A stretch of 64,000 nucleotides of DNA from an uncultured Chitinophagales bacterium (GCA_964456845.1 CAYWCV010000002.1:15314-79313), one strand, 5' to 3'; shown: positions 4,599-57,559, numbered from the stretch's first letter. Numbers and translations are program-made. The notes: generated by a model not told the origin, from the letters alone.

Positions 4599-4794
4599 AA
4601 ACGGAATGTGGTTACCGGCATGCGCTTGCACACCGCTTGATGATGATTTTCAAAAAGATTGTACAGATGCCCAATAATACAAGAAAAATCGCTCGAATGG
4701 TACAGCTATCCCTCCCAAATGGCATCGCGGCAAGAATTGATTCCGGCAAAGGCAACAGATGAATAAAGTAAGCGTTATTTTGGCGAGACGCGGG

Positions 4795-4824
4795 AGCAAG
4801 AGCAAGAGTAAGAGTAAGATAAAG
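4795..4824. repeat. Hexanucleotide array (AGYAAG)x5
   Basis: Read directly: agcaag agcaag agtaag agtaag ataaag. This is the reverse complement of the CTTGCT array at 4939-4980. Confidence 0.9.
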
Positions 4825-4851
4825 TCACAGTTTGGAAACATAGATTGTAGC

Positions 4852-6015
4852 ATGAAAACAGAAGACATCTTTCAATTCAATTTAGACAAGCTCAATCGAG
4901 CATCAGCACGAGGGCACTCACCTGCAGTTGCTCCTGCCGTTGCTCTTGTTCTTGCTCTTGCTCTTGCTCTTGTTCTTGTTCTCGCCCCCACCGCATCGGC
5001 TCAATTCGTGAACGCCAAATACGGCGGCGACTTTCTGAGCATCGGTGCAGGCGCACGCGCCCTCGGCATGGGTTCGGCCTATGTGGCTGTTGCCGACGAG
5101 GTGACGGCGGCATACTGGAATCCTGCGGGGCTTAACGGCATCACAACTTATCAGGGCTCCTACATGCACTCCGAGCGATTTAGCGGTGTAGTCAGCTATG
5201 ATTACGCCGGTTTCGTGCTTCCCGCAAACAATCGCGGTGTCCTGGCACTCAGTGTCTTCCGGCAGGGGGTCGATAACATCAAGAACACCCTCAACGTCTA
5301 CAACGACGCCAATGGCATCCCAGATCCTTCGCAGATAACGACCTTCAGTGCAACCGACATGGCCGTGTTCCTGACATACGCGAATGTATTTCGTGAAAAG
5401 CTGAACTGGGGGGTATCGGCTAAGGTGATCAACTCACGACTTGGACCGTTTGCCGACGCTTGGGGATACAGCTTAGATCTTGGCCTGCAAAAACGCACCG
5501 GCGACTTAAGCTGGGGTGTGAACCTTATGGACGCCACAACGCTGATGAAGTTCTGGTCGGTCGACCGTCAGGCTCTTGCGAATATCGGCGATATCAATGG
5601 CGACGAAATTCCTGAAGGGCAAAATGAGCGCGTCCTGCCAACCCTGAAAGCGGGTGTGGCCAAACGTTTTTACCTCCCCGACCTGGTGGTCACAACCGCG
5701 GCGGATGTCGACGTCCGCTTCGAAGGCCGAAAAGCATTCTATTTGAACACGGGCGACATCAGCTACGAGCCCAACATCGGGGCCGAATTTAGCTATAAGG
5801 AGCTTGTACACATACGTGCCGGACTCACCCAGTTCAGCACAGACACACTATCGTCCAAGCTGTACGTAAACCCCACAGTTGGAGCTGGCATCACCATTGG
5901 CATGGTACAGGTCGATTATGGCTTCAGCCGCAGCCCCTTCGATCTGGGCAACACACACAGGGTTTCTCTGATGGTAAATCTCCAACGTCGCGAAGAACCG
6001 GCAACACGTCAGTAA
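4852..6015 (+). CDS. PorV/PorQ-like (FadL-fold) outer-membrane beta-barrel protein
   Basis: The motif 'FLSIGAGARALGMGSAYVAVADEVTAAYWNPAGL' is typical of the T9SS PorV/PorQ barrel family. Signal peptide '...ALVLALALALVLVLAPTASAQ'. The start is ambiguous: the track gives 4759, and I prefer ATG 4852 because the upstream 'SKSKSKSKIK' is just the hexamer repeat. Confidence 0.55.
   Translation: MKTEDIFQFNLDKLNRASARGHSPAVAPAVALVLALALALVLVLAPTASAQFVNAKYGGDFLSIGAGARALGMGSAYVAVADEVTAAYWNPAGLNGITTYQGSYMHSERFSGVVSYDYAGFVLPANNRGVLALSVFRQGVDNIKNTLNVYNDANGIPDPSQITTFSATDMAVFLTYANVFREKLNWGVSAKVINSRLGPFADAWGYSLDLGLQKRTGDLSWGVNLMDATTLMKFWSVDRQALANIGDINGDEIPEGQNERVLPTLKAGVAKRFYLPDLVVTTAADVDVRFEGRKAFYLNTGDISYEPNIGAEFSYKELVHIRAGLTQFSTDTLSSKLYVNPTVGAGITIGMVQVDYGFSRSPFDLGNTHRVSLMVNLQRREEPATRQ
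4939..4980. repeat. Hexanucleotide array (CTTGYT)n inside the signal-peptide coding region
   Basis: Read directly: gttgct cttgtt cttgct cttgct cttgct cttgtt cttgtt. It encodes 'VALVLALALALVLVL'. The 22-mer at 4951-4972 is identical to 33355-33376. Confidence 0.9.
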
Positions 6016-16481: not shown

Positions 16482-18023
16482 CTATTCTGCCATGATGTTC
16501 ATGAGAATGGTGTCGTCGTTCGATACCCGTGTGTTCCTGTTCGATAGATTCACAAGGTACTTTATGTAGCCCCTGTCTACGGCTTTGAACATCTCATGGG
16601 TGTATCTCCACTCCCACCAACCTGATGAGAACCCCGGAAAATTCATGCGGTGCGTCGTGTCCAAATTCATATAGTCCTGCATTGGAACGATGCATTGATC
16701 GGCCACCGACAACATGCCAAGGCGAATAAGTTCCCAATTGATGCGCATGCCGTCTGTGCGCGTGTACTCACGTGCTCTGTGCCTCTCCAAATCAGTGCCT
16801 TGGTCGAACCATCCAATGCTGGTGTCGTTATCGTGCGTGCCGGTATATACAACACAGTTCGCTGTGGTGTAGTTGTGGGGAAGAAACCCGTTGGCAGCGT
16901 TGTCGCTGAAGGCGAACTGAAGTATTTTCATGCCCGGAAAGTTGAAACTGTCGCGCAGATCAACCACTTCTTTGGTGAGCACGCCCAAATCTTCGGCAAT
17001 AATGGGCAGCTCCCCAAGGTCGGATTTAATGGCTTTGAAGAGTTTTTTGCCGGGGCCCTTCACCCAGCGTCCGTTGATGGCCGTCTTTTCGGAGGCTTTA
17101 ATCTCCCAATAGGCATCAAACCCTCGAAAGTGATCCACACGGATGGCGTCGTACAGCGTGAGTGTCTGCCGGAAGCGGTTGATCCACCAGGCATATCCAT
17201 CTTTTTCCATCACCGACCACTTGTAGAGCGGATTTCCCCAGAGTTGGCCCGTTTCGCTGAAGTAGTCGGGAGGGACACCTGCAACCAGCACACGGTTACC
17301 CAATGCGTCGATTTCGAACAGGTGCGGGTTTGACCAGACATCGGCGCTGTTGTGATCCACAAAGATGGGTATGTCTCCAATAATTTGAACACCCCGCTCA
17401 TTGGAATAGGCACGAAGCGATTTCCACTGGGAATAAAACTCATACTGCAGCCATTCGTGATAGGCGATGACGTCGGCAAGTTCCTTCGTCCATTTTTTGA
17501 CGGCAGCTGGCACACGTTTGCTGAGTTCGGGGTCCCACTGATTCCAGACCTTTTTCCCGTGGTGCTCAAATGCTGCCATAAAAAGGGCATAGTCTTGCAG
17601 CCAGACGGCATTATCCTTCTTGAATGCTTGGAAGGCTTTTTTGTCGGTCGGTTTTGCCCTTTTGGCAAAACGCTCGAAAGCCGTTTTGAACATGGCATCT
17701 TTAGCCGAGAACGCTGCGTCGTAGGGTACTTTCGTACTTTCGTCAATGTGAAACAGGGCCGTCTCGTCGGCACCCAACAGTCCCTTTTCAACTAGCGTGT
17801 CAGGGTCGATAAGGTAATGATTGCCGGCAAATGCGGAGTAGCTGGCATATGGGCTGTTCCCGTACCCCGTGGGACATAGCGGAAGCACCTGCCAGGAGCT
17901 TTGGTCGGTTTCTACCAAAAAATCGATGAATTCACGTGCTGAATTACCGAGGTCGCCGATACCGTACCTTGTAGGAAAAGAGGTGGGGTGAAGAAGCGTA
18001 CCTGCCGATCGTTTAAACTTCAT
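16482..18023 (-). CDS. malQ: 4-alpha-glucanotransferase (amylomaltase, GH77)
   Basis: 513 aa. 'GIGDLG', 'QVLPL.PTG.GNSPY', 'IGDIPIFVDHNSADVW', 'TGTHDNDT'. Confidence 0.92.
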   Translation of the reverse strand: MKFKRSAGTLLHPTSFPTRYGIGDLGNSAREFIDFLVETDQSSWQVLPLCPTGYGNSPYASYSAFAGNHYLIDPDTLVEKGLLGADETALFHIDESTKVPYDAAFSAKDAMFKTAFERFAKRAKPTDKKAFQAFKKDNAVWLQDYALFMAAFEHHGKKVWNQWDPELSKRVPAAVKKWTKELADVIAYHEWLQYEFYSQWKSLRAYSNERGVQIIGDIPIFVDHNSADVWSNPHLFEIDALGNRVLVAGVPPDYFSETGQLWGNPLYKWSVMEKDGYAWWINRFRQTLTLYDAIRVDHFRGFDAYWEIKASEKTAINGRWVKGPGKKLFKAIKSDLGELPIIAEDLGVLTKEVVDLRDSFNFPGMKILQFAFSDNAANGFLPHNYTTANCVVYTGTHDNDTSIGWFDQGTDLERHRAREYTRTDGMRINWELIRLGMLSVADQCIVPMQDYMNLDTTHRMNFPGFSSGWWEWRYTHEMFKAVDRGYIKYLVNLSNRNTRVSNDDTILMNIMAE

Positions 18024-21596: not shown

Positions 21597-23240
21597 CTAT
21601 TCGTTGTAGGTATCGGGCAGATCATTTTCGTACAGGACGATATCGCCTGGCTGCAACCAATCCTTAAGGTCGTTATTCGCCTCAAAAAGAGTACGCACCG
21701 TGAAGATGCCTGCCTCATCAGCGCCCGTGCTGAGGATGCCGTCCTTTATCGGGCGGCTTCTTTCGGGTCCGACCAAATAGACACGGTCCAGGTTGGCCTT
21801 TCCGATTGCCACTCCAAAGTCGTAGTTGGCCTTCTCCTCAAGGTCGCCCAGCTCCACCATCCCGGGTGTGATGATGATCCGGCGACCACCGGTGAACTGC
21901 GACAAAATATCGACCGCATTGGCTGCACCTACCGGGTTGGAGTTGAAGGCGTCGTCGATCACAATGATGGATCCCTGCCTCTTAAGTTCCAAGCGATGTT
22001 CGACCGGTTCCATTTCGCTAATGGCCAACAACATGGTCGGCAACCGCATGCCGAGGTGTTGGCCGACAGCGATTCCCTGCAGGATGTTGGAAACGTTATG
22101 AGCACCCAAAAGGCGTGTTTGAGCCGCTCCGGTTGATCCGTCGGGCATGATCACTGTGAACGAACAACCGTTTTCATCGTAGCGTATATCTTCGGCGCGA
22201 ATCTCTCCTGACTTGAGGCCAGTAGTTGTGTACACTACGTCCGTGCGCTGCTTCATACGCATGACGTTCTCGTCGTCTGCGTTGAGAACCACGAGCCCAC
22301 TTGGCCTCACACGACGCACCAACGCCCCCTTGGTGTCCCGAATCACGTCGACAGATCCGAATGTCTCGAGGTGGGCGACGCCGACGTTGGTGACAACACT
22401 GATGTCGGGCGTTGCAATGTCGCAGAGCTCATCGATATTGCCCGGATAGCGGGCACCCATCTCTAGAATCAGGAGTTCGTGTGAGGCATCAAGGTCCTCA
22501 TTAATCACCTTCGTGATCCCCATTGGCGTGTTGTAGCTACCCGGAGTGAAACAGACGTTGAAACGCTGTTTCAGGATGTCTCGCAGAATGAATTTGGTGC
22601 TGGTTTTGCCATAGCTGCCCGTTATGGCGATAATCTTGACGTGCTGCAGTCTGCCCAGCTTCTCCTTTGCAGACCTGATGAAACCCTTTTGGATGCGGTC
22701 TTCGACAGGCTGCAATAAAAACGAGGCTGGAAACAACCAGTAGGGCACCAACATGTCGGCAAAGACCCAAACGAGAGCGACATAATATATGTCAAAGAGG
22801 AACTCCGCAGGCATGAAGGTTATCCAGGTGCCAAAGGCCGGGGGCAGCATGATAAGCACTAGCGATACGACGCTGAGCCTGACCATCCTAGGAGTAAATG
22901 TGAGTGGCTTTTTCGACTGTGACCGCCGGTATCGGTTGTCGAATGCGTACCAAAACAACACCAGCAGAAACAAGATGATCGTGGCTGCCGTGGGCGTGAT
23001 CGCCTCGCGCTGCCAGATCATGACGAGAACGACAAAATTCATCAAGGCTTTTGTCGTCGAATGCACGTAGGTGCTATAGTTGTGCTTTATCCAATTGAGA
23101 TACTCATTCCTTTTGTATCCCTTCTGCTGAAAAATTTGCAAAAAGAAAAGTCCCCGCGACACCATATGCCGTGCCATGATGTATATGAAAAGAACCGACA
23201 GCAGGTCTATAGTGAAATAATACCAGTTGAGGGGGATCAA
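21597..23240 (-). CDS. MurF-like Mur ligase with an N-terminal polytopic membrane domain
   Basis: 547 aa. The first ~190 aa are hydrophobic, with about 5 predicted TM segments. MurF-type motifs follow: P-loop 'ITGSYGKTSTK', 'LILEMGA', 'VTNVGVAHLE', 'DDAFNSNP', 'ITPGMVELG'. Confidence 0.7.
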   Translation of the reverse strand: MIPLNWYYFTIDLLSVLFIYIMARHMVSRGLFFLQIFQQKGYKRNEYLNWIKHNYSTYVHSTTKALMNFVVLVMIWQREAITPTAATIILFLLVLFWYAFDNRYRRSQSKKPLTFTPRMVRLSVVSLVLIMLPPAFGTWITFMPAEFLFDIYYVALVWVFADMLVPYWLFPASFLLQPVEDRIQKGFIRSAKEKLGRLQHVKIIAITGSYGKTSTKFILRDILKQRFNVCFTPGSYNTPMGITKVINEDLDASHELLILEMGARYPGNIDELCDIATPDISVVTNVGVAHLETFGSVDVIRDTKGALVRRVRPSGLVVLNADDENVMRMKQRTDVVYTTTGLKSGEIRAEDIRYDENGCSFTVIMPDGSTGAAQTRLLGAHNVSNILQGIAVGQHLGMRLPTMLLAISEMEPVEHRLELKRQGSIIVIDDAFNSNPVGAANAVDILSQFTGGRRIIITPGMVELGDLEEKANYDFGVAIGKANLDRVYLVGPERSRPIKDGILSTGADEAGIFTVRTLFEANNDLKDWLQPGDIVLYENDLPDTYNE

Positions 23241-23299
23241 GAGCGGGGTAGATTACATGAAATAAGTCGAAATGTGTCGCAAAATATAAGAAGATTCTG

Positions 23300-23480
23300 C
23301 TAGAGAGCATCCGTAGACAGGGGCATCAATAACTAAGGCATCCGGGGTATCAGGGGCATCGAGGATATCAAAGATATGTTCCGATACCTCTGTTGCCCTC
23401 GATGCCCCTGATACCCCGGATGCCCTGATTGTCTTGGTTATCGATACCCCTTATGCCATTAGTACCTGTGATGCCCTAGA
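23300..23480. repeat. Composite palindromic element with a 28-bp perfect inverted-repeat core
   Basis: The arms 23337-23364 (ggcatccggggtatcaggggcatcgagg) and 23397-23424 are exact reverse complements, separated by a 32-nt spacer. Outer imperfect arms also pair: aggggcatcaataac with gttatcgatacccct, and ctagagagcatc with gatgccctag. GGGGYATC/GATRCCCC octamers recur 7 times. Confidence 0.85.
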
Positions 23481-23481
23481 T

Positions 23482-25884
23482 CTATTTGGCTTCGAAATTA
23501 AACCTGTATCCAGCTTGCAGCCGGTTAAACTTAAACAGGTTCATGTTCATGTATTCCACGAAGACGGCGTTGGTCTCGCCAACAGGTTTTTCGGCACCAA
23601 CCAGTAGGTTAAGGGTGCCTTGTACACCTTTAACGCCATCTGGCGGCTCGTTAAATCCCAAAATGCCCAAGCCAAATCCTGCATAAGGACGCCATGGAGC
23701 AAGATCGTCAACCCTTACATCGGCAAGCAGGTTCACATTCACATTGTACGACATCGTGTTGATGAAACCAATGTTAGCATCCGGTGCGAGGCGGAAGCGT
23801 CCACCTAGAACATCACCGTAGTCAGCTCGTAGACCAAGCACAAATTGAAACGGCTTGCCGGCCAAGTTAAATCCAGCGGTGGCGCTTAGACCTTCGAGGT
23901 TCAGCTTTTCGATGGTGTTCGGGTCTCTCGAGGATGTTACGTCATCGGTGCTCGATTCAGAAACAACTACTGTCTGCGTACGTGTGGAAGATGCCTCCTG
24001 GTTGTCGAGCCGCTCTTGCAGCTGGGCAATCTGTCGTTGTAGCGAGGCAACCAGCGTGTCGTTTCGCTGGCTTTCAATCCTGCTCAAAATCCTTTCCTCT
24101 ATGGCCTTTTCATCTACTTTCTGCGATTCAGGACCCTCAACTTTGATCTTGAGTTCGGACCGTTCGACGTCTTGTGTCCCTTGTGTCGCCTGTTGACGCT
24201 GCACATTGGTGCCAGATTCTTGGCGGCTCGACGCGCTGCGTTCGACTTCTCTGACAACGATAACGGTGTCTACGCGCGTTGCCCGAGAGTTGGACGAAAT
24301 GATACCGTTTTCCCTGAGCGTTTCACGCAATATCGACTGGATCATTGATCGGAGTTGCTCAATATCCATGGCGTTCAGGCCCGATTTGCCCACTACCACT
24401 GTTTCGTGAACAACCTCGTCTGGAACCACTTTCATGGAACCGGTCTTCCCGAAGCGGATGTAGATCTCACCGTCTTCAATAACAGGGATCGTGATAAACT
24501 TTGGCTCAGGCTTTGATGCCATAGTGGTTTTCATATGATCCATCGTTTCTTTATCGCGCACAACCAAGGTGTCACCATTGCGTGCAAAGGCAGCTTCATT
24601 CACACGAGCATCGAAATCGCTAGATCTTGTAACGTCTGTCTTACGCTTCGAACCAAGGGCAAATGAGATGCCACCGTTAAACATCCAGCTATTGGTCACA
24701 TTCTCGGTTGAATTGACATCGTTTAGGTCGTCGCTGCTCACGAGTACCGCCTTAGCGGAGCCGAAAAGTTTAAAATTGTCGTTTAGCTTGAGCTCGACAC
24801 CACCGCCACCTAATGCGAACGGCTTATCGTTTGCCACTCTGCGGCCTTCATATTCGTTATTCACGTCGATGTACCCTGCACCTATGCTCAAGTAAGGCAC
24901 CAAGCCCGTTGGCGCGTCGTTCAGACGAAATTTCATCTCGCCGCCGTACATGGCGAACTTGTCAAATTTTGTCCACTCATCTTCTTCGAGGCCCCTGAAA
25001 TAGAATCCGCGCAATCCGACATATGGACCAAAATCAAACCCTGCGCTTCCACCAGCAAACCTTTGGTCGGCCCTGTATGGCAGCTTGTCGTTAAACTGAA
25101 CGACTCCAACCGTTGGCTCGACAATGATGCTGATTCCTTTGAAACCACCACTGAACTGTCGTTGCAGATCTTGGTCAAGATCAGACATATGCATGGGGTC
25201 TCTTCCTCCCAGATAACCCGTCACACCGGCGGTTAAGGCCCAGTTTCCAATTTCCTTGTCTCGTACGGTTGACCTGATCACACCCAGTTCTCCGAGTTCA
25301 GCATCGTTGAGAAAGGTATTGACTGGATTGTATCGATACCACAAGTTATCGACCCCTACATTGAGTGTGAATCTACTGTCTATACTGTATTTGACTCCGG
25401 CACCGCCCGATAAGTAGATATGTTCACTTTTGGGACGGTTTTCTGGGTCAATTTCGATGATGCCTGTTCCGGCAGCGATGTACGGTATGAGCAACCCTGA
25501 CCCGATATTAAAGGTCAAATTCCCACCATAGCGGGTAATGTCGACGTCGCGACGCTGAAATATCTCCGCATATTCATTTGCTCGAGCAGAGCTGATGTCG
25601 TTTAGAAAATCGATTTTGCCGATGTTGGTTTCAACACCCGAGCTGATCATGTACAAACCGCTCAATTCAACATAACGCCCAAATCCAAAGCCTAGTTGGC
25701 CGCCGTACATATAGCCACCGTCCAATCCCGATTGTTTGTTCCACGACATTGCGCTTCCAGTCGGACTCAAACTGTAACTTACCCCTCTTACTTGCGCCGT
25801 CACAAATGCCGGAAGGGCGATTATGGCTGCAAGTATAGCGGCCACTAACATTTTAGCGCCATAGTAGCTCTTTGATAATTTCAT
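23482..25884 (-). CDS. Large composite outer-membrane protein (beta-barrel-type segments split by a hydrophilic coiled-coil insert)
   Basis: 800 aa with signal peptide '...IIALPAFVTAQ'. Porin-like alternating segments span ~30-410 and ~690-800. The central ~280 aa are charged/Ser-Thr rich and include 'LQRQIAQLQERLDNQEASS'. Confidence 0.5.
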   Translation of the reverse strand: MKLSKSYYGAKMLVAAILAAIIALPAFVTAQVRGVSYSLSPTGSAMSWNKQSGLDGGYMYGGQLGFGFGRYVELSGLYMISSGVETNIGKIDFLNDISSARANEYAEIFQRRDVDITRYGGNLTFNIGSGLLIPYIAAGTGIIEIDPENRPKSEHIYLSGGAGVKYSIDSRFTLNVGVDNLWYRYNPVNTFLNDAELGELGVIRSTVRDKEIGNWALTAGVTGYLGGRDPMHMSDLDQDLQRQFSGGFKGISIIVEPTVGVVQFNDKLPYRADQRFAGGSAGFDFGPYVGLRGFYFRGLEEDEWTKFDKFAMYGGEMKFRLNDAPTGLVPYLSIGAGYIDVNNEYEGRRVANDKPFALGGGGVELKLNDNFKLFGSAKAVLVSSDDLNDVNSTENVTNSWMFNGGISFALGSKRKTDVTRSSDFDARVNEAAFARNGDTLVVRDKETMDHMKTTMASKPEPKFITIPVIEDGEIYIRFGKTGSMKVVPDEVVHETVVVGKSGLNAMDIEQLRSMIQSILRETLRENGIISSNSRATRVDTVIVVREVERSASSRQESGTNVQRQQATQGTQDVERSELKIKVEGPESQKVDEKAIEERILSRIESQRNDTLVASLQRQIAQLQERLDNQEASSTRTQTVVVSESSTDDVTSSRDPNTIEKLNLEGLSATAGFNLAGKPFQFVLGLRADYGDVLGGRFRLAPDANIGFINTMSYNVNVNLLADVRVDDLAPWRPYAGFGLGILGFNEPPDGVKGVQGTLNLLVGAEKPVGETNAVFVEYMNMNLFKFNRLQAGYRFNFEAK

Positions 25885-32998: not shown

Positions 32999-34120
32999 TT
33001 ATTGCTGTCCATACTGTCGGACCACATCGGATTGAAATTTTCTATCTAAGGTGGAGTTAGCTTCTCGGGCGGCTTCGCGTGTTTCAAACTGACCGAGATG
33101 GAGCTCCCAGGCAATTTCTCCTTGCACGCGCACCCGGAACAACCGTGCACGTGTATTTGCCGCCGTTACTTCGTCGAATATCTCGTTGGCAACACGCTCG
33201 GTGAACATGGTGGCAGACACAATGGTGAAATAACGTGGTGTATCCTGTTGCCATGAACCAGCAAGACCGAAGGAACCAACCTCGGCAGGTATAACCACGG
33301 GATCTTGTACCTCAGGTTCTTGCTCTTGTTCCTGCACCTGCCCTAACCCTTGCCCTTGCTCTTGCTCTTGCTCTTGCATCCCCATGGCCGCATCCTGATT
33401 TTGGACAATGGTTGGCGATTCGAGGGTAATGCTTCCGGGGTCATTGCGAGTAACATAGTCGGGAAAGACTTCATGGAACGATGGCATTCCGGTACCTGCG
33501 AGCCAGCCCTTGTACCAAGAGACGCCGGCACCTGCAAGAAGAGTGATTGAAAAAGCAGCGATACCCACCAATTTGCGCCAGCGCTCGCCCTTGTGCACAT
33601 AGTTGTCGTCAATGCGTATCTCAAGAGGGAGGGTGTGGGGATCCCGCCATTTGAGCGGCGGGGTTTTCAGGTCAACTACCTTAGGGACGTCTGAGCTTGC
33701 GGTTGTAACTGGTGTTTCCTCCAACTCAACGACATCTTGGGCGATAGGTGACTCGGAGTCCAGTAATTGATCGTCGACATCTGCCACTTCAGGTTCGTTG
33801 ATGACGAATACGGCCGTTTCGGGGATTTCGGTGTCTTCATGATCAGAATGCGTGCCATCATGTCGGGCTACTTCCACGACGATTGGCTGTAGACCATGGT
33901 AGCGAAAGTTGATGTCCATCTCCAGTGTCGGATCCGTCTCAAAAGTCATCTGGTCGCCGTTGAGGCGGAAGGTACCCAGCCCGGGCAGCTCTGCTGCACC
34001 ATGCTCCTTCAAACTGCGATGCAACTGCTCCAATACCTCATGCAAACCATGACCCGCCGTCTTGATTTCAATCTTCAGCCTCTCAGAGAGAATGTCGATA
34101 AGTTTGTAGTGGTCGATCAT
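32999..34120 (-). CDS. HU-CCDC81(bac_2)-like / TM / SPOR domain protein
   Basis: Likely start at ATG 34120 ('MIDHYKLIDILSERL...LPGLGTFRL'), not at track start 34180. TM 'LVGIAAFSITLLAGAGVSWY', low-complexity 'QEQEQEQGQGLGQVQEQEQE', and a C-terminal SPOR-like 'YFTIVSATMFTERVANE...LHLGQFETREAAREA'. Confidence 0.7.
   Translation of the reverse strand: MIDHYKLIDILSERLKIEIKTAGHGLHEVLEQLHRSLKEHGAAELPGLGTFRLNGDQMTFETDPTLEMDINFRYHGLQPIVVEVARHDGTHSDHEDTEIPETAVFVINEPEVADVDDQLLDSESPIAQDVVELEETPVTTASSDVPKVVDLKTPPLKWRDPHTLPLEIRIDDNYVHKGERWRKLVGIAAFSITLLAGAGVSWYKGWLAGTGMPSFHEVFPDYVTRNDPGSITLESPTIVQNQDAAMGMQEQEQEQGQGLGQVQEQEQEPEVQDPVVIPAEVGSFGLAGSWQQDTPRYFTIVSATMFTERVANEIFDEVTAANTRARLFRVRVQGEIAWELHLGQFETREAAREANSTLDRKFQSDVVRQYGQQ
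33317..33377. repeat. Hexanucleotide array (CTTGCT/CTTGCC)n
   Basis: Read directly. 33355-33376 'cttgctcttgctcttgctcttg' is identical to 4951-4972. It encodes the QEQEQE tract of the SPOR protein on the minus strand. Confidence 0.9.
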
Positions 34121-34121
34121 C

Positions 34122-34313
34122 TCACGAGTCCGGGTTGAAATGCAACCGGTCGGATGGCGGCGCCATACTAACGGTACCATCGCTCATCAACTGCCGCTGC
34201 TGGCTATGGTGTTCGACTTTGAACGTACCCAAGGAGGGGATCGAGACTACCCCCCGTTTCATCAGCTCCTCACGAATAATCTTGACCAGTTCTGACTTTA
34301 ATTCCTCGTTCAT
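34122..34313 (-). CDS. Small HU-CCDC81(bac_1)-like protein
   Basis: 63 aa. 'ELVKIIREELMKRGVVSIPSLGTFKVEHH...APPSDRLHF' resembles the first HU-like domain that is normally fused N-terminally to HU/SPOR proteins. Its TGA stop sits 1 nt before the ATG of the next gene (TGAgATG). Confidence 0.6.
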   Translation of the reverse strand: MNEELKSELVKIIREELMKRGVVSIPSLGTFKVEHHSQQRQLMSDGTVSMAPPSDRLHFNPDS

Positions 34314-52495: not shown

Positions 52496-53587
52496 ATGTC
52501 TTTATCAGTAGAAAGCGTCCGCGATGCCTTGAGCAACGTGATTGAACCGGATTTGGGTCAGGATCTGATCACACTCAACATGGTTTTCGACATCGAGGTG
52601 AGTGGCAAGGATGTCTCCTTCACCGTAAATCTCACCACCCCGGCCTGCCCGCTCAAGGCCGAGATCGAGCGCGCGTGCATAAACGCAGTTAAGCACTTGG
52701 TTGATATCGACGCCAATGTTACCGTGAACATGACGGCGAATGTCCAAAAAGCCCGCATTGACGGACAGGGCGACCAGACTTTGGTGAGCGAGGTTGCGAA
52801 CATAATTGCCGTGGCATCGGGTAAGGGCGGTGTTGGTAAGTCGACGGTTGCCGTAAATTTGGCTATTGCATTGGCCCAGGCCGGCGCAAAAGTCGGCCTT
52901 GTCGATACCGACATCTATGGACCCAGCATCCCCATGATGTTCGGCGTGAATGAGCGTCCCGACATCAGTGTCCGCCGCAAGATCGTGCCCCTCGAAAAAT
53001 ACGGGGTAAAAATTCTGTCGATGGGTTTCATGGTCGACCCTGACCAGGCCGTAATCTGGCGTGGACCGATGGTTTCGAGTGCCGTCCGCCAATTCCTGAG
53101 CGATGCCGAGTGGGGCGATTTGGACTATCTGCTGTTAGACCTGCCTCCAGGCACGGGTGATATCCAATTGACGATTGTCCAAAACGTGCCTTTGACGGGC
53201 GCCATCGTGGTCTCGACGCCTCAAGATGTGGCACTGGAAGACGCCCGAAAAGGTGTCGCTATGTTCAAGAAGGTGAATGTGCCGATTCTGGGCATCGTCG
53301 AGAACATGGCATGGTTCATGGACCCAGCCGGCAACAAGCACCATATTTTCGGGAAGGATGGAGCCAGAAGGCTTGCCGAGTCCCTCGAAATCCCATTCTT
53401 GGGAGAAGTCCCCTTGGAGCAGAGTGTGCGTGAGGGGGGCGACGAGGGAGTCCCAGTTGTGTTACGCAACCCTGAGTCGGCTGGTGCCAAGGCCCTCGTC
53501 GAAATATCGGAGCGCGCCGCACAGTCGATTTCCGTTCGAAACGCCTCGTTGCCGGCTACGAAAAAGATCGAGATTCTTTTCCGATAA
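52496..53587 (+). CDS. apbC: Fe-S cluster carrier ATPase Mrp/ApbC (NBP35 family)
   Basis: 363 aa. N-terminal DUF59/MIP18-like 'V.EPDLGQDLITLNMV', deviant Walker A 'ASGKGGVGKST', and 'DLPPGTGD'. Confidence 0.92.
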   Translation: MSLSVESVRDALSNVIEPDLGQDLITLNMVFDIEVSGKDVSFTVNLTTPACPLKAEIERACINAVKHLVDIDANVTVNMTANVQKARIDGQGDQTLVSEVANIIAVASGKGGVGKSTVAVNLAIALAQAGAKVGLVDTDIYGPSIPMMFGVNERPDISVRRKIVPLEKYGVKILSMGFMVDPDQAVIWRGPMVSSAVRQFLSDAEWGDLDYLLLDLPPGTGDIQLTIVQNVPLTGAIVVSTPQDVALEDARKGVAMFKKVNVPILGIVENMAWFMDPAGNKHHIFGKDGARRLAESLEIPFLGEVPLEQSVREGGDEGVPVVLRNPESAGAKALVEISERAAQSISVRNASLPATKKIEILFR

Positions 53588-53601
53588 CCGTAAACAGAAA
53601 G

Positions 53602-53645
53602 AGGGGACAGACGATACCAACAGGCATCTTCTGTCCCCTTTTTTA
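53602..53645 (+). terminator. Rho-independent terminator (between convergent apbC and rplS)
   Basis: aggggacaga-(18 nt)-tctgtcccct: a 10-bp perfect stem followed by a T6 run at 53640-53645. The complementary strand gives stem+ctttct, so the hairpin may also serve rplS. Confidence 0.6.
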
Positions 53646-54745: not shown

Positions 54746-55293
54746 AGCTCCAATAGTTCGTCGATGTCGACCACCGTAACCGTGCGTTCATCATCGTCCA
54801 CCTCGTCGACATAAGCGTCGACGAACGGAATCAGAACCTCACCTTTTCCCTTGATATGCATTCGAAGGATGGGGTGTGCAGGGTTGTCGAGTGTTTCGAT
54901 CACGTCGCCAATGTTGTTCCCGTCGGTGTCGAGCACCGAGTAACCGGACAGGTCGTCGGCATCCTCTTCGAAGAAGTCGACATTTCCGGGTTCGACAAGT
55001 ACGTGACGACCAACGAGGGCTGTTGCAGCGTTGCGGTCAGCTACCATTTCCAAAATCACAAAGAACATTTGCCGTTCGCCCTGAACCGACAGCCTTGAAG
55101 ACTGTATGCGCCAGGGCTGCAGCATCCCGAAATCGCCCGCCATGTAGACGGTTTCGACATCCAGGAGCTGGTTTGGCATTGGCAGGTCGATGCGGATGCC
55201 GATTTCACCCTTCAATCCGTGAACTTTGGTCACCGTGCCAATGGCATCGAATGATGGATCAGGATTGGATTGAGGTTTCATGTCGGTACCCAT
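54742..55293 (-). CDS. rimM: 16S rRNA processing protein RimM
   Basis: 183 aa. 'IGTVTKVHGLKGEI' and a C-terminal PRC barrel. It sits in the canonical rpsP-rimM-trmD-rplS order. Confidence 0.88.
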   Translation of the reverse strand: MGTDMKPQSNPDPSFDAIGTVTKVHGLKGEIGIRIDLPMPNQLLDVETVYMAGDFGMLQPWRIQSSRLSVQGERQMFFVILEMVADRNAATALVGRHVLVEPGNVDFFEEDADDLSGYSVLDTDGNNIGDVIETLDNPAHPILRMHIKGKGEVLIPFVDAYVDEVDDDERTVTVVDIDELLEL

Positions 55294-55310
55294 CCCCTCT
55301 GCCTGGAGGA

Positions 55311-55988
55311 TTAGGCTTCCTTGTTCTCTTCGCCTTCGGCGCTTTCAGCTGCGGGGGCCTCTTCGGCAGGAGCTTCGTTTGCTGTTGCCTCTTCGGCAGG
55401 AGCCTCGGTTGCTTCTTCCTCTGTGGCTTCCGTTACCTCGGCAGCGGCTTCTTCGGCAGGTGCTTCTTCGGTAACTTCCGTGGCGGCGGCTGTTTCAGCG
55501 GCTTCAGCTTGGGCAGCGGCAGCGGCGGCAGCGGCTTTGGCTTCTTCGGCAGCGGCAATGGCGGCGGCTTCAGCGGCTTTGGCTTTCTCTACCTGCGACT
55601 TCTTGTAGGCTTCTTCTTCAGCTTTCAGGCGGGCACGCATTTCTTCGGTACCCGTCTTGACGGTCTTGTCGCCTTTAGAAGCTTTCCAGGCATCGATGGT
55701 TGAGTTGATCTCTTCTTCCGACTTGCCCCAGCCAAGAAGGTGGACGCGGTACAGGATACCTTCCTTCTTGAGGATGGAACGCACCGTGTCGGTAGGCTGA
55801 GCACCGGTCTTGAGCCAGTGAATGACTCGGTCGGTCTTTATGGTCACTTTCGTTGTGGCATTTACAGGGTCGTAGCGACCCAGGTCTTCAATGATTCGAC
55901 CATCACGCTTGGCACGCACGTCGGCTACCACGATATGATAGTACGGCTTCTTCTTGCGACCGTGCCGTTGGAGGCGGATTTTAACCAA
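55311..55988 (-). CDS. rpsP: 30S ribosomal protein S16 with a long Ala/Glu-rich C-terminal extension
   Basis: The N-terminal ~85 aa '[36 protein letters not shown]' form the S16 core. The remaining ~140 aa are low-complexity (A/E/K/T). Confidence 0.9.
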
Positions 55989-57473: not shown

Positions 57474-57559
57474 CTTATGCCACCACCCCCTTCCCCAGAA
57501 TTTATCTCGAGCTTGCGAGAGACCTACCGCGGTGGAGGGGAAGGGGGTGGTGGCATAAG
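57474..57559. repeat. 23-bp perfect GC-rich inverted repeat (hairpin) in the ffh/fabI divergent intergenic region
   Basis: 57474-57496 'cttatgccaccacccccttcccc' and 57537-57559 'ggggaagggggtggtggcataag' are exact reverse complements. The 40-nt spacer contains its own small hairpin (tctcg-agcttg-cgaga). Confidence 0.85.

What the first reader, a model, noticed from the sequence alone, without database searches (positions are those of the whole stretch)
23300..23480. ~180-bp composite palindrome with a 28-bp perfect core filling the gap between the 800-aa OMP gene and the MurF-like gene
The arms 23337-23364 (ggcatccggggtatcaggggcatcgagg) and 23397-23424 are exact reverse complements around a 32-nt spacer. 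Further out, aggggcatcaataac (23319-23333) pairs imperfectly with gttatcgatacccct on the right. The termini ctagagagcatc and gatgccctag are also inverted, with indels between them. The octamer GGGGYATC, or its complement, occurs seven times. The element begins 1-2 nt after the OMP stop codon and ends 60 nt before the start of the MurF-like gene. A 28-bp stem with a 32-nt loop is far larger than a normal intrinsic terminator. Possible explanations: a REP/MITE-like element, a very strong terminator/insulator, a structured RNA, or an array of operator half-sites for a dimeric regulator.
Basis: seen in the sequence. Interest (0 to 1): 0.6.

Follow-up and report, generated by a model that had tools for sequence, protein, structure and literature searches.

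The report
Conserved repeat-built hairpin after OMP gene
A very long hairpin-forming palindrome, built from mirrored 9-base repeats, sits right after an outer-membrane protein gene where more distant relatives carry an ordinary transcription terminator; it is probably an unusual, lineage-specific end-of-gene signal, not a mobile repeat.

Summary
The palindrome is real. There are perfect 28-nt arms that extend to 41 nt at 88% around a 6-nt loop, and the whole 23300-23480 stretch pairs. It is the most stable hairpin in the 64-kb window on both strands. Both flanking genes are on the minus strand. The element starts 2 nt after the OMP stop and ends about 10 nt before a Bacteroidota-type -7 box (TATATTTT) that serves the Mur-ligase-like gene (TTG start at 23240). 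The arms are mirrored arrays of 9-nt units (GGYATCNNG / GATRCCCCN). Orthologous loci from eight relatives show the same slot filled by related palindromes, although synonymous sites are saturated. Most carry this "type A". Two carry a "type B" with 8-nt units and a conserved centre, including the nearest relative (97% OMP identity), so the element behaves as a swapped cassette. One relative keeps only the last unit. Two outgroups have a canonical hairpin plus T-run terminator there. There is no second copy in the window or in the relatives' flanks, no Rfam family, and no conserved reading frame. Best reading: a lineage-specific terminator, 3'-end protector or insulator hairpin, shaped by slippage and template switching. 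Whole-genome copy number could not be tested.

The parts
23482..25884 (-). 800-aa outer-membrane beta-barrel protein gene. Its stop codon TAG is at 23484-23482.
   Evidence: ORF list. Pfam OMP_b-brl, E = 2e-14. 78 homologues in Bacteroidota/Rhodothermota-type genomes.
23300..23480 (-). The whole composite palindrome. On the sense (minus) strand the 5' arm is 23480-23384, the apical loop is 23383-23378, and the 3' arm is 23377-23300.
   Evidence: About 70 base pairs, -107 kcal/mol for the element alone (z = -13), the most stable hairpin in the window.
23397..23424 (-). Perfect 28-nt core, sense-strand 5' arm: GGCATCCGG GGTATCAGG GGCATCGAG G.
   Evidence: 0 mismatches.
23337..23364 (-). Perfect 28-nt core, sense-strand 3' arm: CCTC GATGCCCCT GATACCCCG GATGCC.
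   Evidence: The non-motif triplets are also mirrored exactly (CGG/CCG, AGG/CCT, GAG/CTC).
23365..23396 (-). Inner extension of the stem, giving arms of 41 nt at 88% in total, plus a 6-nt apical loop at 23378-23383. It contains a TATCTTTG (-7-box-like) match at 23376-23369 that is not conserved in relatives.
   Evidence: (I1).
23436..23480 (-). Outer, degenerate 9-nt units of the sense 5' arm: GGCATCACA GGTACTAAT GGCATAAGG GGTATCGAT. They start 2 nt after the OMP stop.
   Evidence: (D1, D2).
23300..23333 (-). Outer part of the sense 3' arm. It includes the last unit GATGC (23311-23307), which is invariant in all six aligned relatives. The G of its ATG lies 19 nt upstream of the -7-like box.
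   Evidence: Alignment A2 (invariant G250-C254, with no gaps between it and the box).
23281..23288 (-). TATATTTT, a Bacteroidota-type -7 promoter box (consensus TAnnTTTG) inside the conserved block TCTTCTTATATTT. It is inferred to be the promoter of the Mur-ligase-like gene.
   Evidence: Invariant block, and a perfect TATATTTG in L128. Consensus from PMC9723704. Similar boxes lie upstream of other genes in the window.
21597..23240 (-). 547-aa Mur-ligase-family gene with a TTG start and an N-terminal hydrophobic segment. It resembles MurF but scores below the MurF family cut-off.
   Evidence: TIGR01143: 245.6 bits against a cut-off of 288.6. The TTG start and N-terminal codons are conserved with mostly third-position changes.

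Best explanation
The element is a lineage-conserved, single-locus hairpin at the 3' end of the OMP transcription unit. RNA polymerase transcribing the OMP gene on the minus strand copies first a G-rich array of 9-nt units (GGYAUCNNG) and then its mirror image (GAURCCCCN). Together they zip into a stem of about 70 bp directly after the stop codon.

Inferred function: this stem marks the end of the OMP message. It may stop or stall transcription, block 3'-to-5' exonucleases, or both. It thereby shields the promoter of the Mur-ligase-like gene, which begins about 10 nt further on, from read-through.

Inferred origin of the repeat architecture: it reflects how the hairpin is made and renewed, not a separate function. 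Replication slippage expands and contracts the arrays. Intrastrand template switching copies one arm onto the other, which gives the perfect 28-bp core. The whole intergenic cassette can be replaced by homologous recombination through the conserved flanks.

Shown here: the structure, its position, its conservation, its two forms, and the canonical terminator in outgroups. Inferred: termination or stabilisation activity, and the mutational mechanism.
For: 1. Position. The element starts 2 nt after the OMP stop and ends just before the conserved TCTTCTTATATTT box, 40-50 nt upstream of the next gene's TTG.
2. Functional slot. The two outgroup orthologous loci (OMP 50-52% identical, same gene order) have a textbook hairpin plus T7-T8 terminator 15-20 nt after the OMP stop (L132/L133 and L136).
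3. Hairpin potential is kept in seven orthologous loci with different sequences. Energies are -107 (window), -108 (L138), -83 (L120), -67 (L122), -57 (L121), -43 (L131) and -42 (L126b) kcal/mol; z runs from -4.7 to -13 in all but L131 (z = -2.2).
4. In type B both arms changed together to an 8-nt period. This keeps pairing but would disturb a phased protein array.
5. The element is not neutral. Four-fold degenerate sites in the OMP gene are saturated between these lineages (29-40% identity). Against that background, the type A inner arm is 81-83% identical ungapped, and the type B centre matches at 38 of 44 positions (P about 1e-11).
6. Some mirrored changes keep pairs. For example, GAG/CTC in the window corresponds to AAG/CTT in L138, and 3 of 24 consensus pairs show double changes.
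7. There is a single copy in 64 kb and none elsewhere in the relatives' flanks.
8. Template switching is documented to create and maintain perfect hairpin stems (PMC8794818).
9. A canonical short terminator exists elsewhere in this genome (53598-53643, followed by TTTTT). The element is therefore an exception, not the local norm.
Against: - In type A no uninterrupted U-tract follows the stem directly. The window reads ...GGAUGCUCUCUAGCAGAAUCUUCUUAUAUUUU. The consensus terminator scan did not call it, though that scan's loop and stem limits exclude it by design.
- One clade member (L128/L130) lacks the hairpin and keeps only the last unit, so the hairpin is dispensable there.
- There is no consistent strand bias in stability. 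The sense strand is more stable in 3 loci and the antisense strand in 4. An RNA-level role on the sense strand is therefore not specifically supported over a DNA-level one.
- Sequence conservation is higher than a plain terminator stem usually shows, which hints at sequence-specific recognition.
- A perfect 28-bp RNA duplex would be an RNase III substrate (established knowledge). It may be a processing site and not a protective end.
- No transcript data are available.
Confidence: 0.45

Rival explanations
1. Intercistronic RNase III processing site. The OMP and Mur-ligase-like genes are co-transcribed at least in part. The long perfect duplex is cut by RNase III, which uncouples the stability and translation of the two messages, as with T7 R1.1-type or lambda sib-type signals.
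For: The perfect stem is 28 bp and the total about 70 bp. That exceeds the roughly 20-22 bp needed by RNase III (established knowledge) and is far longer than terminator stems. Both genes are on the same strand, 241 nt apart. Type A has no adjacent U-tract.
Against: A conserved -7-type promoter box lies between the hairpin and the downstream gene. Outgroups separate the genes with a true terminator. Several relatives have much less perfect stems; L121, L126b and L131 fold at -42 to -57 kcal/mol with bulges.
Confidence: 0.15
2. Double-stranded DNA operator or iteron array. An oligomerising DNA-binding protein (for example a ribbon-helix-helix type that binds contiguous 7-11 bp units) recognises the GCATC/GATGC units. 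These are arranged head-to-head next to the promoter of the Mur-ligase-like gene, and the protein regulates that promoter.
For: The GCATC core is kept in every unit type and every lineage. The unit nearest the promoter is invariant and at a fixed distance from the -7 box. Sequence conservation exceeds what pairing alone needs. There is no strand asymmetry. The array abuts the promoter.
Against: The period changes from 9 to 8 bp in type B, in both arms together, which would break phased cooperative binding. Non-motif spacer triplets are mirrored exactly, which points to pairing or arm copying. Unit numbers differ widely, from 2 to at least 8. L128 has a single unit. No regulator gene lies among the neighbours.
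Confidence: 0.15
3. Functionless by-product. A palindromic minisatellite keeps regenerating from a constrained seed (the GATGC unit that belongs to the downstream promoter) by slippage and template switching, and is tolerated in a permissive intergenic spot.
For: Unit number and arm symmetry vary strongly between relatives. One relative has only the seed unit, and another has a one-sided expansion of at least 8 units. Three metagenome contigs break at or inside the array. Template switching can make perfect stems without selection (PMC8794818).
Against: The element has persisted since a divergence at which synonymous sites are saturated. It keeps a shared unit order, including the odd GGCAAC unit, and type B has a non-repetitive centre matching at 38 of 44 positions. 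Strong hairpins of about -108 kcal/mol are kept in two lineages whose OMPs are 70% identical. Long palindromes are normally deletion-prone.
Confidence: 0.15
4. A copy of a dispersed REP/REPIN-like or MITE-like repeat family of this genome.
For: It has a hairpin-forming inverted pair in an intergenic region after a gene, like REPINs (PMC3116915). There are two interchangeable 'types' at one site, and type B appears in non-sister lineages. Assemblies break at the element.
Against: There is one copy in the 64-kb window and none in the roughly 75 kb of non-redundant clade relatives' loci read (60 kb of it flanking sequence). There are no flanking direct repeats. The element is inherited at one orthologous site with a shared internal unit order. 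The locus that lacks the hairpin (L128) retains the last unit, so it is not a clean empty site. There were no hits in plasmids, and only collagen-like or peptide-repeat coding hits in viral contigs.
Confidence: 0.07
5. Invertible promoter (inverton). The 28-bp inverted repeats flank a short segment carrying a -7 box that a site-specific recombinase flips.
For: A perfect TAnnTTTG match (TATCTTTG, 23376-23369) lies at the apex, pointing toward the Mur-ligase-like gene. Invertons are common in Bacteroidota (PMC4747536, listed).
Against: The apex box is absent from L121, L122, L126b, L120 and L131. The spacer itself is mostly paired, with a 6-nt loop. A separate conserved promoter box lies downstream. 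No recombinase gene was seen among the neighbours examined.
Confidence: 0.03

Closest known systems
Intrinsic (Rho-independent) transcription terminators
   Same: A G+C-rich hairpin immediately after a stop codon, between two separately promoted genes. The orthologous slot in outgroup relatives holds a canonical terminator.
   Different: The stem has about 70 pairs (28 of them perfect) instead of 5-15. The arms are tandem 9-nt repeats. In type A no uninterrupted U-tract follows the stem. The sequence is conserved at distances where terminator stems normally are not alignable.
REP/BIME elements acting as mRNA 3'-end stabilisers, and REPIN doublets (PMC3116915; REP stabilisers reviewed in PMC2777011)
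   Same: An extragenic palindrome between genes on the same strand. It is expected to block 3' exonucleases and give differential expression of the upstream and downstream genes. It is an inverted pair forming one long hairpin.
   Different: It is not dispersed, with a single copy in 64 kb. It is much longer and is made of short tandem units. No associated RAYT transposase was looked for.
RNase III processing stems (phage T7 R1.1, lambda sib, rRNA spacer stems)
   Same: A long, nearly perfect RNA duplex of more than 20 bp in an intercistronic or 3' position.
   Different: No internal-loop features of known sites were examined, and no cleavage data exist. The stem is repeat-built.
Template-switch (quasipalindrome correction) generated hairpins (PMC8794818)
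   Same: A perfect core inside an imperfect palindrome. The arms change together, including a joint change of repeat period.
   Different: That process explains origin and maintenance, not function. Here it acts on tandem arrays, so slippage and arm copying combine.
Contiguous short-repeat operator arrays of ribbon-helix-helix proteins (MetJ metboxes, omega heptads, ParR/parC iterons)
   Same: Contiguous units of 7-11 bp in direct and inverted orientation next to a promoter.
   Different: The period is not fixed (9 or 8 bp). Spacer bases are mirrored. No cognate regulator lies nearby. The resemblance is recalled from general knowledge and was not tested.

Membership tests
Intrinsic terminator | Stable G+C-rich hairpin just downstream of a stop codon, on the transcribed strand | tested here: met
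   The hairpin starts 2 nt after the TAG and folds at -107 kcal/mol.
Intrinsic terminator | Short stem (about 5-15 bp) with a 3-8 nt loop | tested here: not met
   About 70 pairs. The consensus scan does not call it.
Intrinsic terminator | U-tract directly 3' of the stem | tested here: inconclusive
   In the window the tail is CUCUAGCAGAAUCUUCUUAUAUUUU, which is U-rich but interrupted and offset. In type B (L120, L131) UUGGUUCUUUUUCUUCUU follows the stem directly.
Intrinsic terminator | Transcripts end there | not testable with these tools
   No RNA data. The only indirect support is canonical terminators at the orthologous position in L132/L133 and L136.
REP / REPIN / BIME | Tens to hundreds of dispersed copies per genome | tested here: not met
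   One copy in 64 kb, and none elsewhere in the clade relatives' loci L120-L138 (about 75 kb non-redundant). The whole genome was not available, and the genome-contig scan hit only unrelated coding repeats.
REP / REPIN / BIME | Association with a RAYT (IS200/IS605-like) transposase gene | not tested
   The ORFs of the window were not all scanned. None of the examined neighbours is one.
MITE | Terminal inverted repeats plus a target-site duplication, and clean empty sites in relatives | tested here: not met
   No flanking direct repeat; the CTAG at both ends is part of the palindrome. L128 lacks the hairpin but keeps the last unit at the same distance from the promoter.
Rfam structured RNA families | Match to a curated covariance model at the gathering score | tested here: not met
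   No hit in the whole window. With permissive thresholds there are only far sub-threshold matches to eukaryotic miRNA precursor hairpins.
Collagen-like (Gly-X-Y) or other tripeptide-repeat coding sequence | An open reading frame kept across the repeats in relatives | tested here: not met
   In the window the GXY frame continues the OMP frame after TAG-ATC-TAG and is open for 35 codons. Relatives have in-frame stops, 8-nt units and frame shifts, and no frame is shared. Exact-pattern hits in other genomes and phages are genuine coding repeats without an inverted partner.
Integron attC site | R''/R' core sites (RYYYAAC ... GTTRRRY) at the ends of an imperfect palindrome after a mobile cassette | tested here: not met
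   The candidate heptamers CGATAAC and GTTATTG do not fit the cores. Gene order is fixed in all relatives.
Inverton (invertible promoter) | Inverted repeats flanking a promoter-bearing segment, conserved among relatives, with a recombinase | tested here: not met
   The apex TATCTTTG is found only in the window, and the spacer is nearly all paired. Orientation polymorphism is not testable.
RNase III substrate | RNA duplex of at least about 20-22 bp | tested here: met
   28 perfect pairs. Cleavage itself is not testable here.

The most novel reading that the evidence does not exclude
The mirrored GCATC-unit arrays are a sequence-specifically recognised cis-element, either RNA or cruciform-prone DNA, of a previously undescribed kind. 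It has been conserved for a long time in an uncultivated Bacteroidota-type clade. It exists as two exchangeable cassette alleles (9-nt type A, and 8-nt type B with a structured centre). It couples expression of an abundant outer-membrane protein to the adjacent membrane-anchored Mur-ligase paralogue through an unknown binding factor.
Probability: 0.15. Interest if true: 0.6.

Novelty: new variant of a known kind. Interest (0 to 1): 0.38.

Why it matters
If the reading is right, a canonical intrinsic terminator can be replaced in evolution by a much larger hairpin built from repeats. That hairpin is then kept for a very long time and is swapped between lineages as a cassette.

It would be a natural example of slippage and template switching together building and renewing a functional hairpin. 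It would also be a test case for how Bacteroidota-type RNA polymerase and RNases handle very long stems.

In practical terms, the element breaks metagenome assemblies at this locus, and gene callers place spurious ORFs in it.

It does not open a long-standing question, and nothing here requires new biology.

Tried and rejected
1. Genome-contig scan with GGYATCNGGGGYATCNGGGGYATC. All hits are one-directional tripeptide-repeat coding arrays (PDTPDT, ASGASG, GIRGIR) with no inverted partner. The source genome was not recovered, so genome-wide copy number stays untested.
2. Metagenome-contig scan with the OMP alignment. It returned only 3 loci, none informative for the intergenic region.
3. Coding hypothesis (collagen-like read-through extension of the OMP, or a small ORF). 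Rejected because no frame is conserved.
4. Viral-contig scans with the type A arm, the type A 3' array and the type B centre. They found only phage collagen-like fibre genes, PDAP-type repeats and chance 18-mers.
5. Plasmid BLAST of the element: no match.
6. Rfam at gathering and permissive thresholds: nothing meaningful.
7. Strand test (sense against antisense folding energy in seven loci): split 3 to 4, uninformative.
8. Gapped pairwise identity of the elements. Shuffled controls reach 0.66-0.86 with that aligner, so I relied on ungapped register scans instead.
9. Other repeat palindromes in the window (4794-4975, 33319-33377) as possible family members. These are coding low-complexity repeats, not the same thing.
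10. oriC/DnaA-box, dif and attC readings. The unit does not resemble a DnaA box. There is no skew switch. The attC cores are absent.
11. Taxon names via cluster look-up: none on record.

Full report
**1. The observation**

The sequence is as described. The arms 23337-23364 and 23397-23424 are exact reverse complements, and no shuffle gave any match. The outer imperfect pairings are also present.

Three details need correcting:
- GGGGYATC or its complement occurs six times in the region, not seven.
- The '32-nt loop' is mostly paired. The repeat extends to 41-nt arms at 88% around a 6-nt loop.
- Both flanking genes lie on the minus strand. The element follows the OMP stop (TAG, 23484-23482) by 2 nt at its right end. 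Its left end lies 59-60 nt upstream of the TTG start (23240) of the Mur-ligase-like gene.

The minus-strand RNA of 23241-23485 folds at -113.4 kcal/mol (z = -10.2), and the plus strand at -102.2 (z = -7.2). In a sliding 120-nt fold of all 64 kb, this is the most stable segment on both strands (-77 and -70 kcal/mol, against a mean of -31 and sd 6.7).

On the sense strand these read GGYATCNNG and then GATRCCCCN.

**2. Surroundings**

The upstream gene encodes an 800-aa outer-membrane beta-barrel protein. The downstream gene encodes a 547-aa Mur-ligase-family protein that resembles MurF but scores below the MurF cut-off. Its TTG start and N-terminal hydrophobic segment are conserved in relatives, with mostly third-position changes.

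Between the palindrome and that start lies the invariant block TCTTCTTATATTT. Its TATATTT[T/G/A/C] fits the Bacteroidota sigma-A -7 box TAnnTTTG (PMC9723704; PMC7641319) and is a perfect match in L128. Similar boxes lie 5-70 nt upstream of several other genes in the window. A T9SS sorting-domain protein is also present, which fits a Bacteroidota-type organism.

I therefore infer that this block is the promoter of the Mur-ligase-like gene. The palindrome then fills exactly the space between one gene's stop and the next gene's promoter.

**3. Relatives**

The OMP has close homologues only in metagenome assemblies. I read the orthologous intergenic region in these.

| Form at the site | Loci | Notes |
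|---|---|---|
| Type A: 9-nt units like the window | L121, L122, L126b/L127, L135, L138/L137, probably L134 | OMP identity 66-75%. In L126b/L127 the element follows the second of two tandem OMP paralogues. |
| Type B: 8-nt units (GCATCGGA / CCGATGCC) around a non-repetitive centre of about 45 nt with two small hairpins | L120 and L131 | OMP identity 97% and 67% respectively. |
| No hairpin | L128/L130 | OMP identity 69%. Only GCTGATGCCTCTGATCAGAATC remains. It aligns with the window's last 3' unit and tail. |
| Canonical terminator: hairpin plus T7-T8, 15-20 nt after the stop | L132/L133 and L136 | OMP identity 50-52%, same gene order. |

The first OMP paralogue in L126 is followed only by decayed 3'-type units.

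Folding energies are -108 (L138, z = -10), -83 (L120), -67 (L122), -57 (L121), -43 (L131) and -42 (L126b) kcal/mol. Three assemblies end at or inside the element (L122, L134, L135). This is expected for palindromic or tandem sequence, or for strain polymorphism.

**4. Conservation and history**

Four-fold degenerate sites of the OMP gene are saturated between the window and L121, L138 and L131 (29-40% identity). Against that background:
- The type A inner 5' arm is 81-83% identical to L121 and L138 in the homologous register. It is 69-72% identical when shifted by one unit.
- The odd unit GGCAAC recurs next to the apex in the window, L121 and L138. L126b and L122 carry a different variant there (GGCACC, GGACATC).
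- The type B centre matches at 38 of 44 positions between L120 and L131 (P about 1e-11).
- The last 3' unit GATGC is invariant in all six aligned loci. It sits at a fixed distance from the -7 box, with the G of ATG followed by 19 nt and then the box. It may be part of the promoter's upstream element; this is my inference.

On an OMP tree, types A and B each occur in both subclades. The window and L120 are 94% identical in OMP DNA and 96% in the promoter/5'UTR, yet carry different types. The type-linked sequence runs from the stop codon to the T-rich block. This pattern indicates replacement of the whole cassette by recombination through the conserved flanks. The element is therefore old and constrained, but its unit number and arm symmetry vary, from 2 to at least 8 units.

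**5. What it is not**

- **Not coding.** In the window the Gly-X-Y frame continues the OMP frame after TAG-ATC-TAG, but relatives have stops, frame shifts and 8-nt units. Exact-pattern hits in 119 genomes and in phages are true peptide-repeat genes without an inverted partner.
- **Not in Rfam**.
- **Not detectably dispersed.** There is no second copy, and no significant shared k-mers, in the window or in the roughly 75 kb of non-redundant clade relatives' loci read (60 kb of it flanking sequence). There is no plasmid match.
- **Not a MITE, attC site or inverton.** There is no target-site duplication and there are no attC cores. The apex -7-like box (23376-23369) is not conserved.

**6. Mechanism**

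The best-supported reading is an end-of-transcript hairpin for the OMP gene. It would act as a terminator, a 3'-exonuclease barrier, or both, and would insulate the adjacent promoter. The main supports are:
- the canonical terminator at the same slot in outgroups;
- the position between stop codon and promoter;
- hairpin potential retained in two sequence-distinct forms;
- the joint switch of both arms to an 8-nt period in type B, which preserves pairing but would upset a phased protein array;
- a few mirrored compensatory changes.

The repeat-built arms and the perfect 28-bp core are best explained by slippage plus intrastrand template switching (PMC8794818).

The weak points are:
- the lack of an adjacent U-tract in type A;
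- loss of the hairpin in L128;
- no strand bias in stability;
- sequence conservation beyond what pairing needs;
- the fact that a 28-bp duplex should attract RNase III.

Rivals kept open are an RNase III processing site, a double-stranded operator array, a regenerating neutral minisatellite, a dispersed REP-like family, and an inverton.

**7. Verdict**

The finding is real, locally unique and evolutionarily conserved. It is most likely an unusual variant of a known kind, namely a terminator or stabiliser hairpin. The features of moderate interest are its repeat architecture, its long persistence and its two exchangeable forms.

Noticed in passing
window 57474-57559: A second long palindrome with perfect 23-nt arms (CTTATGCCACCACCCCCTTCCCC / GGGGAAGGGGGTGGTGGCATAAG) and a 40-nt partly paired spacer. 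It folds at -70 kcal/mol (z = -6.8) and is the second most stable hairpin in the window. It lies between the divergent ffh (SRP54, minus strand) and fabI-like (plus strand) genes, and is followed by GATGC, a T-run and a CTTATATTC box. There is no Rfam match. Its function is unknown.
   Followed up: partly
L126 2425-6967 (also L127): In one relative the OMP gene is tandemly duplicated (789 aa and 640 aa). The first copy is followed only by decayed 3'-type units, and the second by a full type A palindrome.
   Followed up: partly
L120 2529-2680 compared with window 23300-23480: The nearest relative (OMP 97% aa, promoter/5'UTR 96% nt) carries a completely different cassette. It is type B, with 8-nt units and a centre matching L131 at 38 of 44 positions. 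This is intergenic allele replacement between near-identical flanks.
   Followed up: yes
L122 end (6494), L134 end (4886), L135 end (4972): Three independent metagenome or MAG contigs stop at or inside the element. JGI's gene caller also placed a 64-aa ORF on the opposite strand inside it (L137 4027-4221, L138 2584-2778), which is probably spurious.
   Followed up: partly
window 23369-23376 (minus strand): A perfect TAnnTTTG match (TATCTTTG) sits at the apex of the palindrome, pointing toward the Mur-ligase-like gene. It is not conserved in relatives.
   Followed up: yes
window 21597-23240 (minus strand): The 'MurF-like' protein scores below the MurF family cut-off (245.6 against 288.6 bits). 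It has a conserved N-terminal hydrophobic extension and a TTG start, so it is probably a membrane-anchored Mur-ligase paralogue and not the housekeeping MurF.
   Followed up: partly
window 4794-4975: (GAGCAA)n and (TTGCTC)n hexamer arrays in inverted orientation, 120 nt apart. They appear to be coding low-complexity sequence (an SKSKSK stretch and an LALALV-type hydrophobic stretch) at the 5' end of ORF 4759-6015, which has no Pfam match.
   Followed up: partly
window 33319-33377 and 55357-55585: Tandem 6/12-nt and 30/21/15-nt repeats. The first is inside the ORF of an HU-like domain protein (32999-34180, minus strand). For the second, the ORF list shows overlapping ORFs at 54876-55703 (+) and 55311-55988 (-), and its coding status was not checked.
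   Followed up: no
window 53598-53643: A canonical short terminator-like hairpin (21-nt arms, 4-nt loop, then TTTTT) about 10 nt after the stop of gene 52496-53587. This shows that ordinary intrinsic terminators also occur in this genome.
   Followed up: partly
window 16569-16582: A 14-mer, GCCCCTGTCTACGG, is shared with the outer 3' arm of the element and lies inside the ORF 16482-18023 (minus strand), whose ortholog in L132 carries Glyco_hydro_77. Rough chance expectation is about 0.07, so it is probably coincidence.
   Followed up: no
L131 5600-5625 and L132 12541-12560: The type B centre shares the 11-mer AGCTGTAAGCA with the sequence directly after the OMP stop in the outgroup L132. This may be a trace of the ancestral post-stop sequence around which the arms grew.
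   Followed up: no
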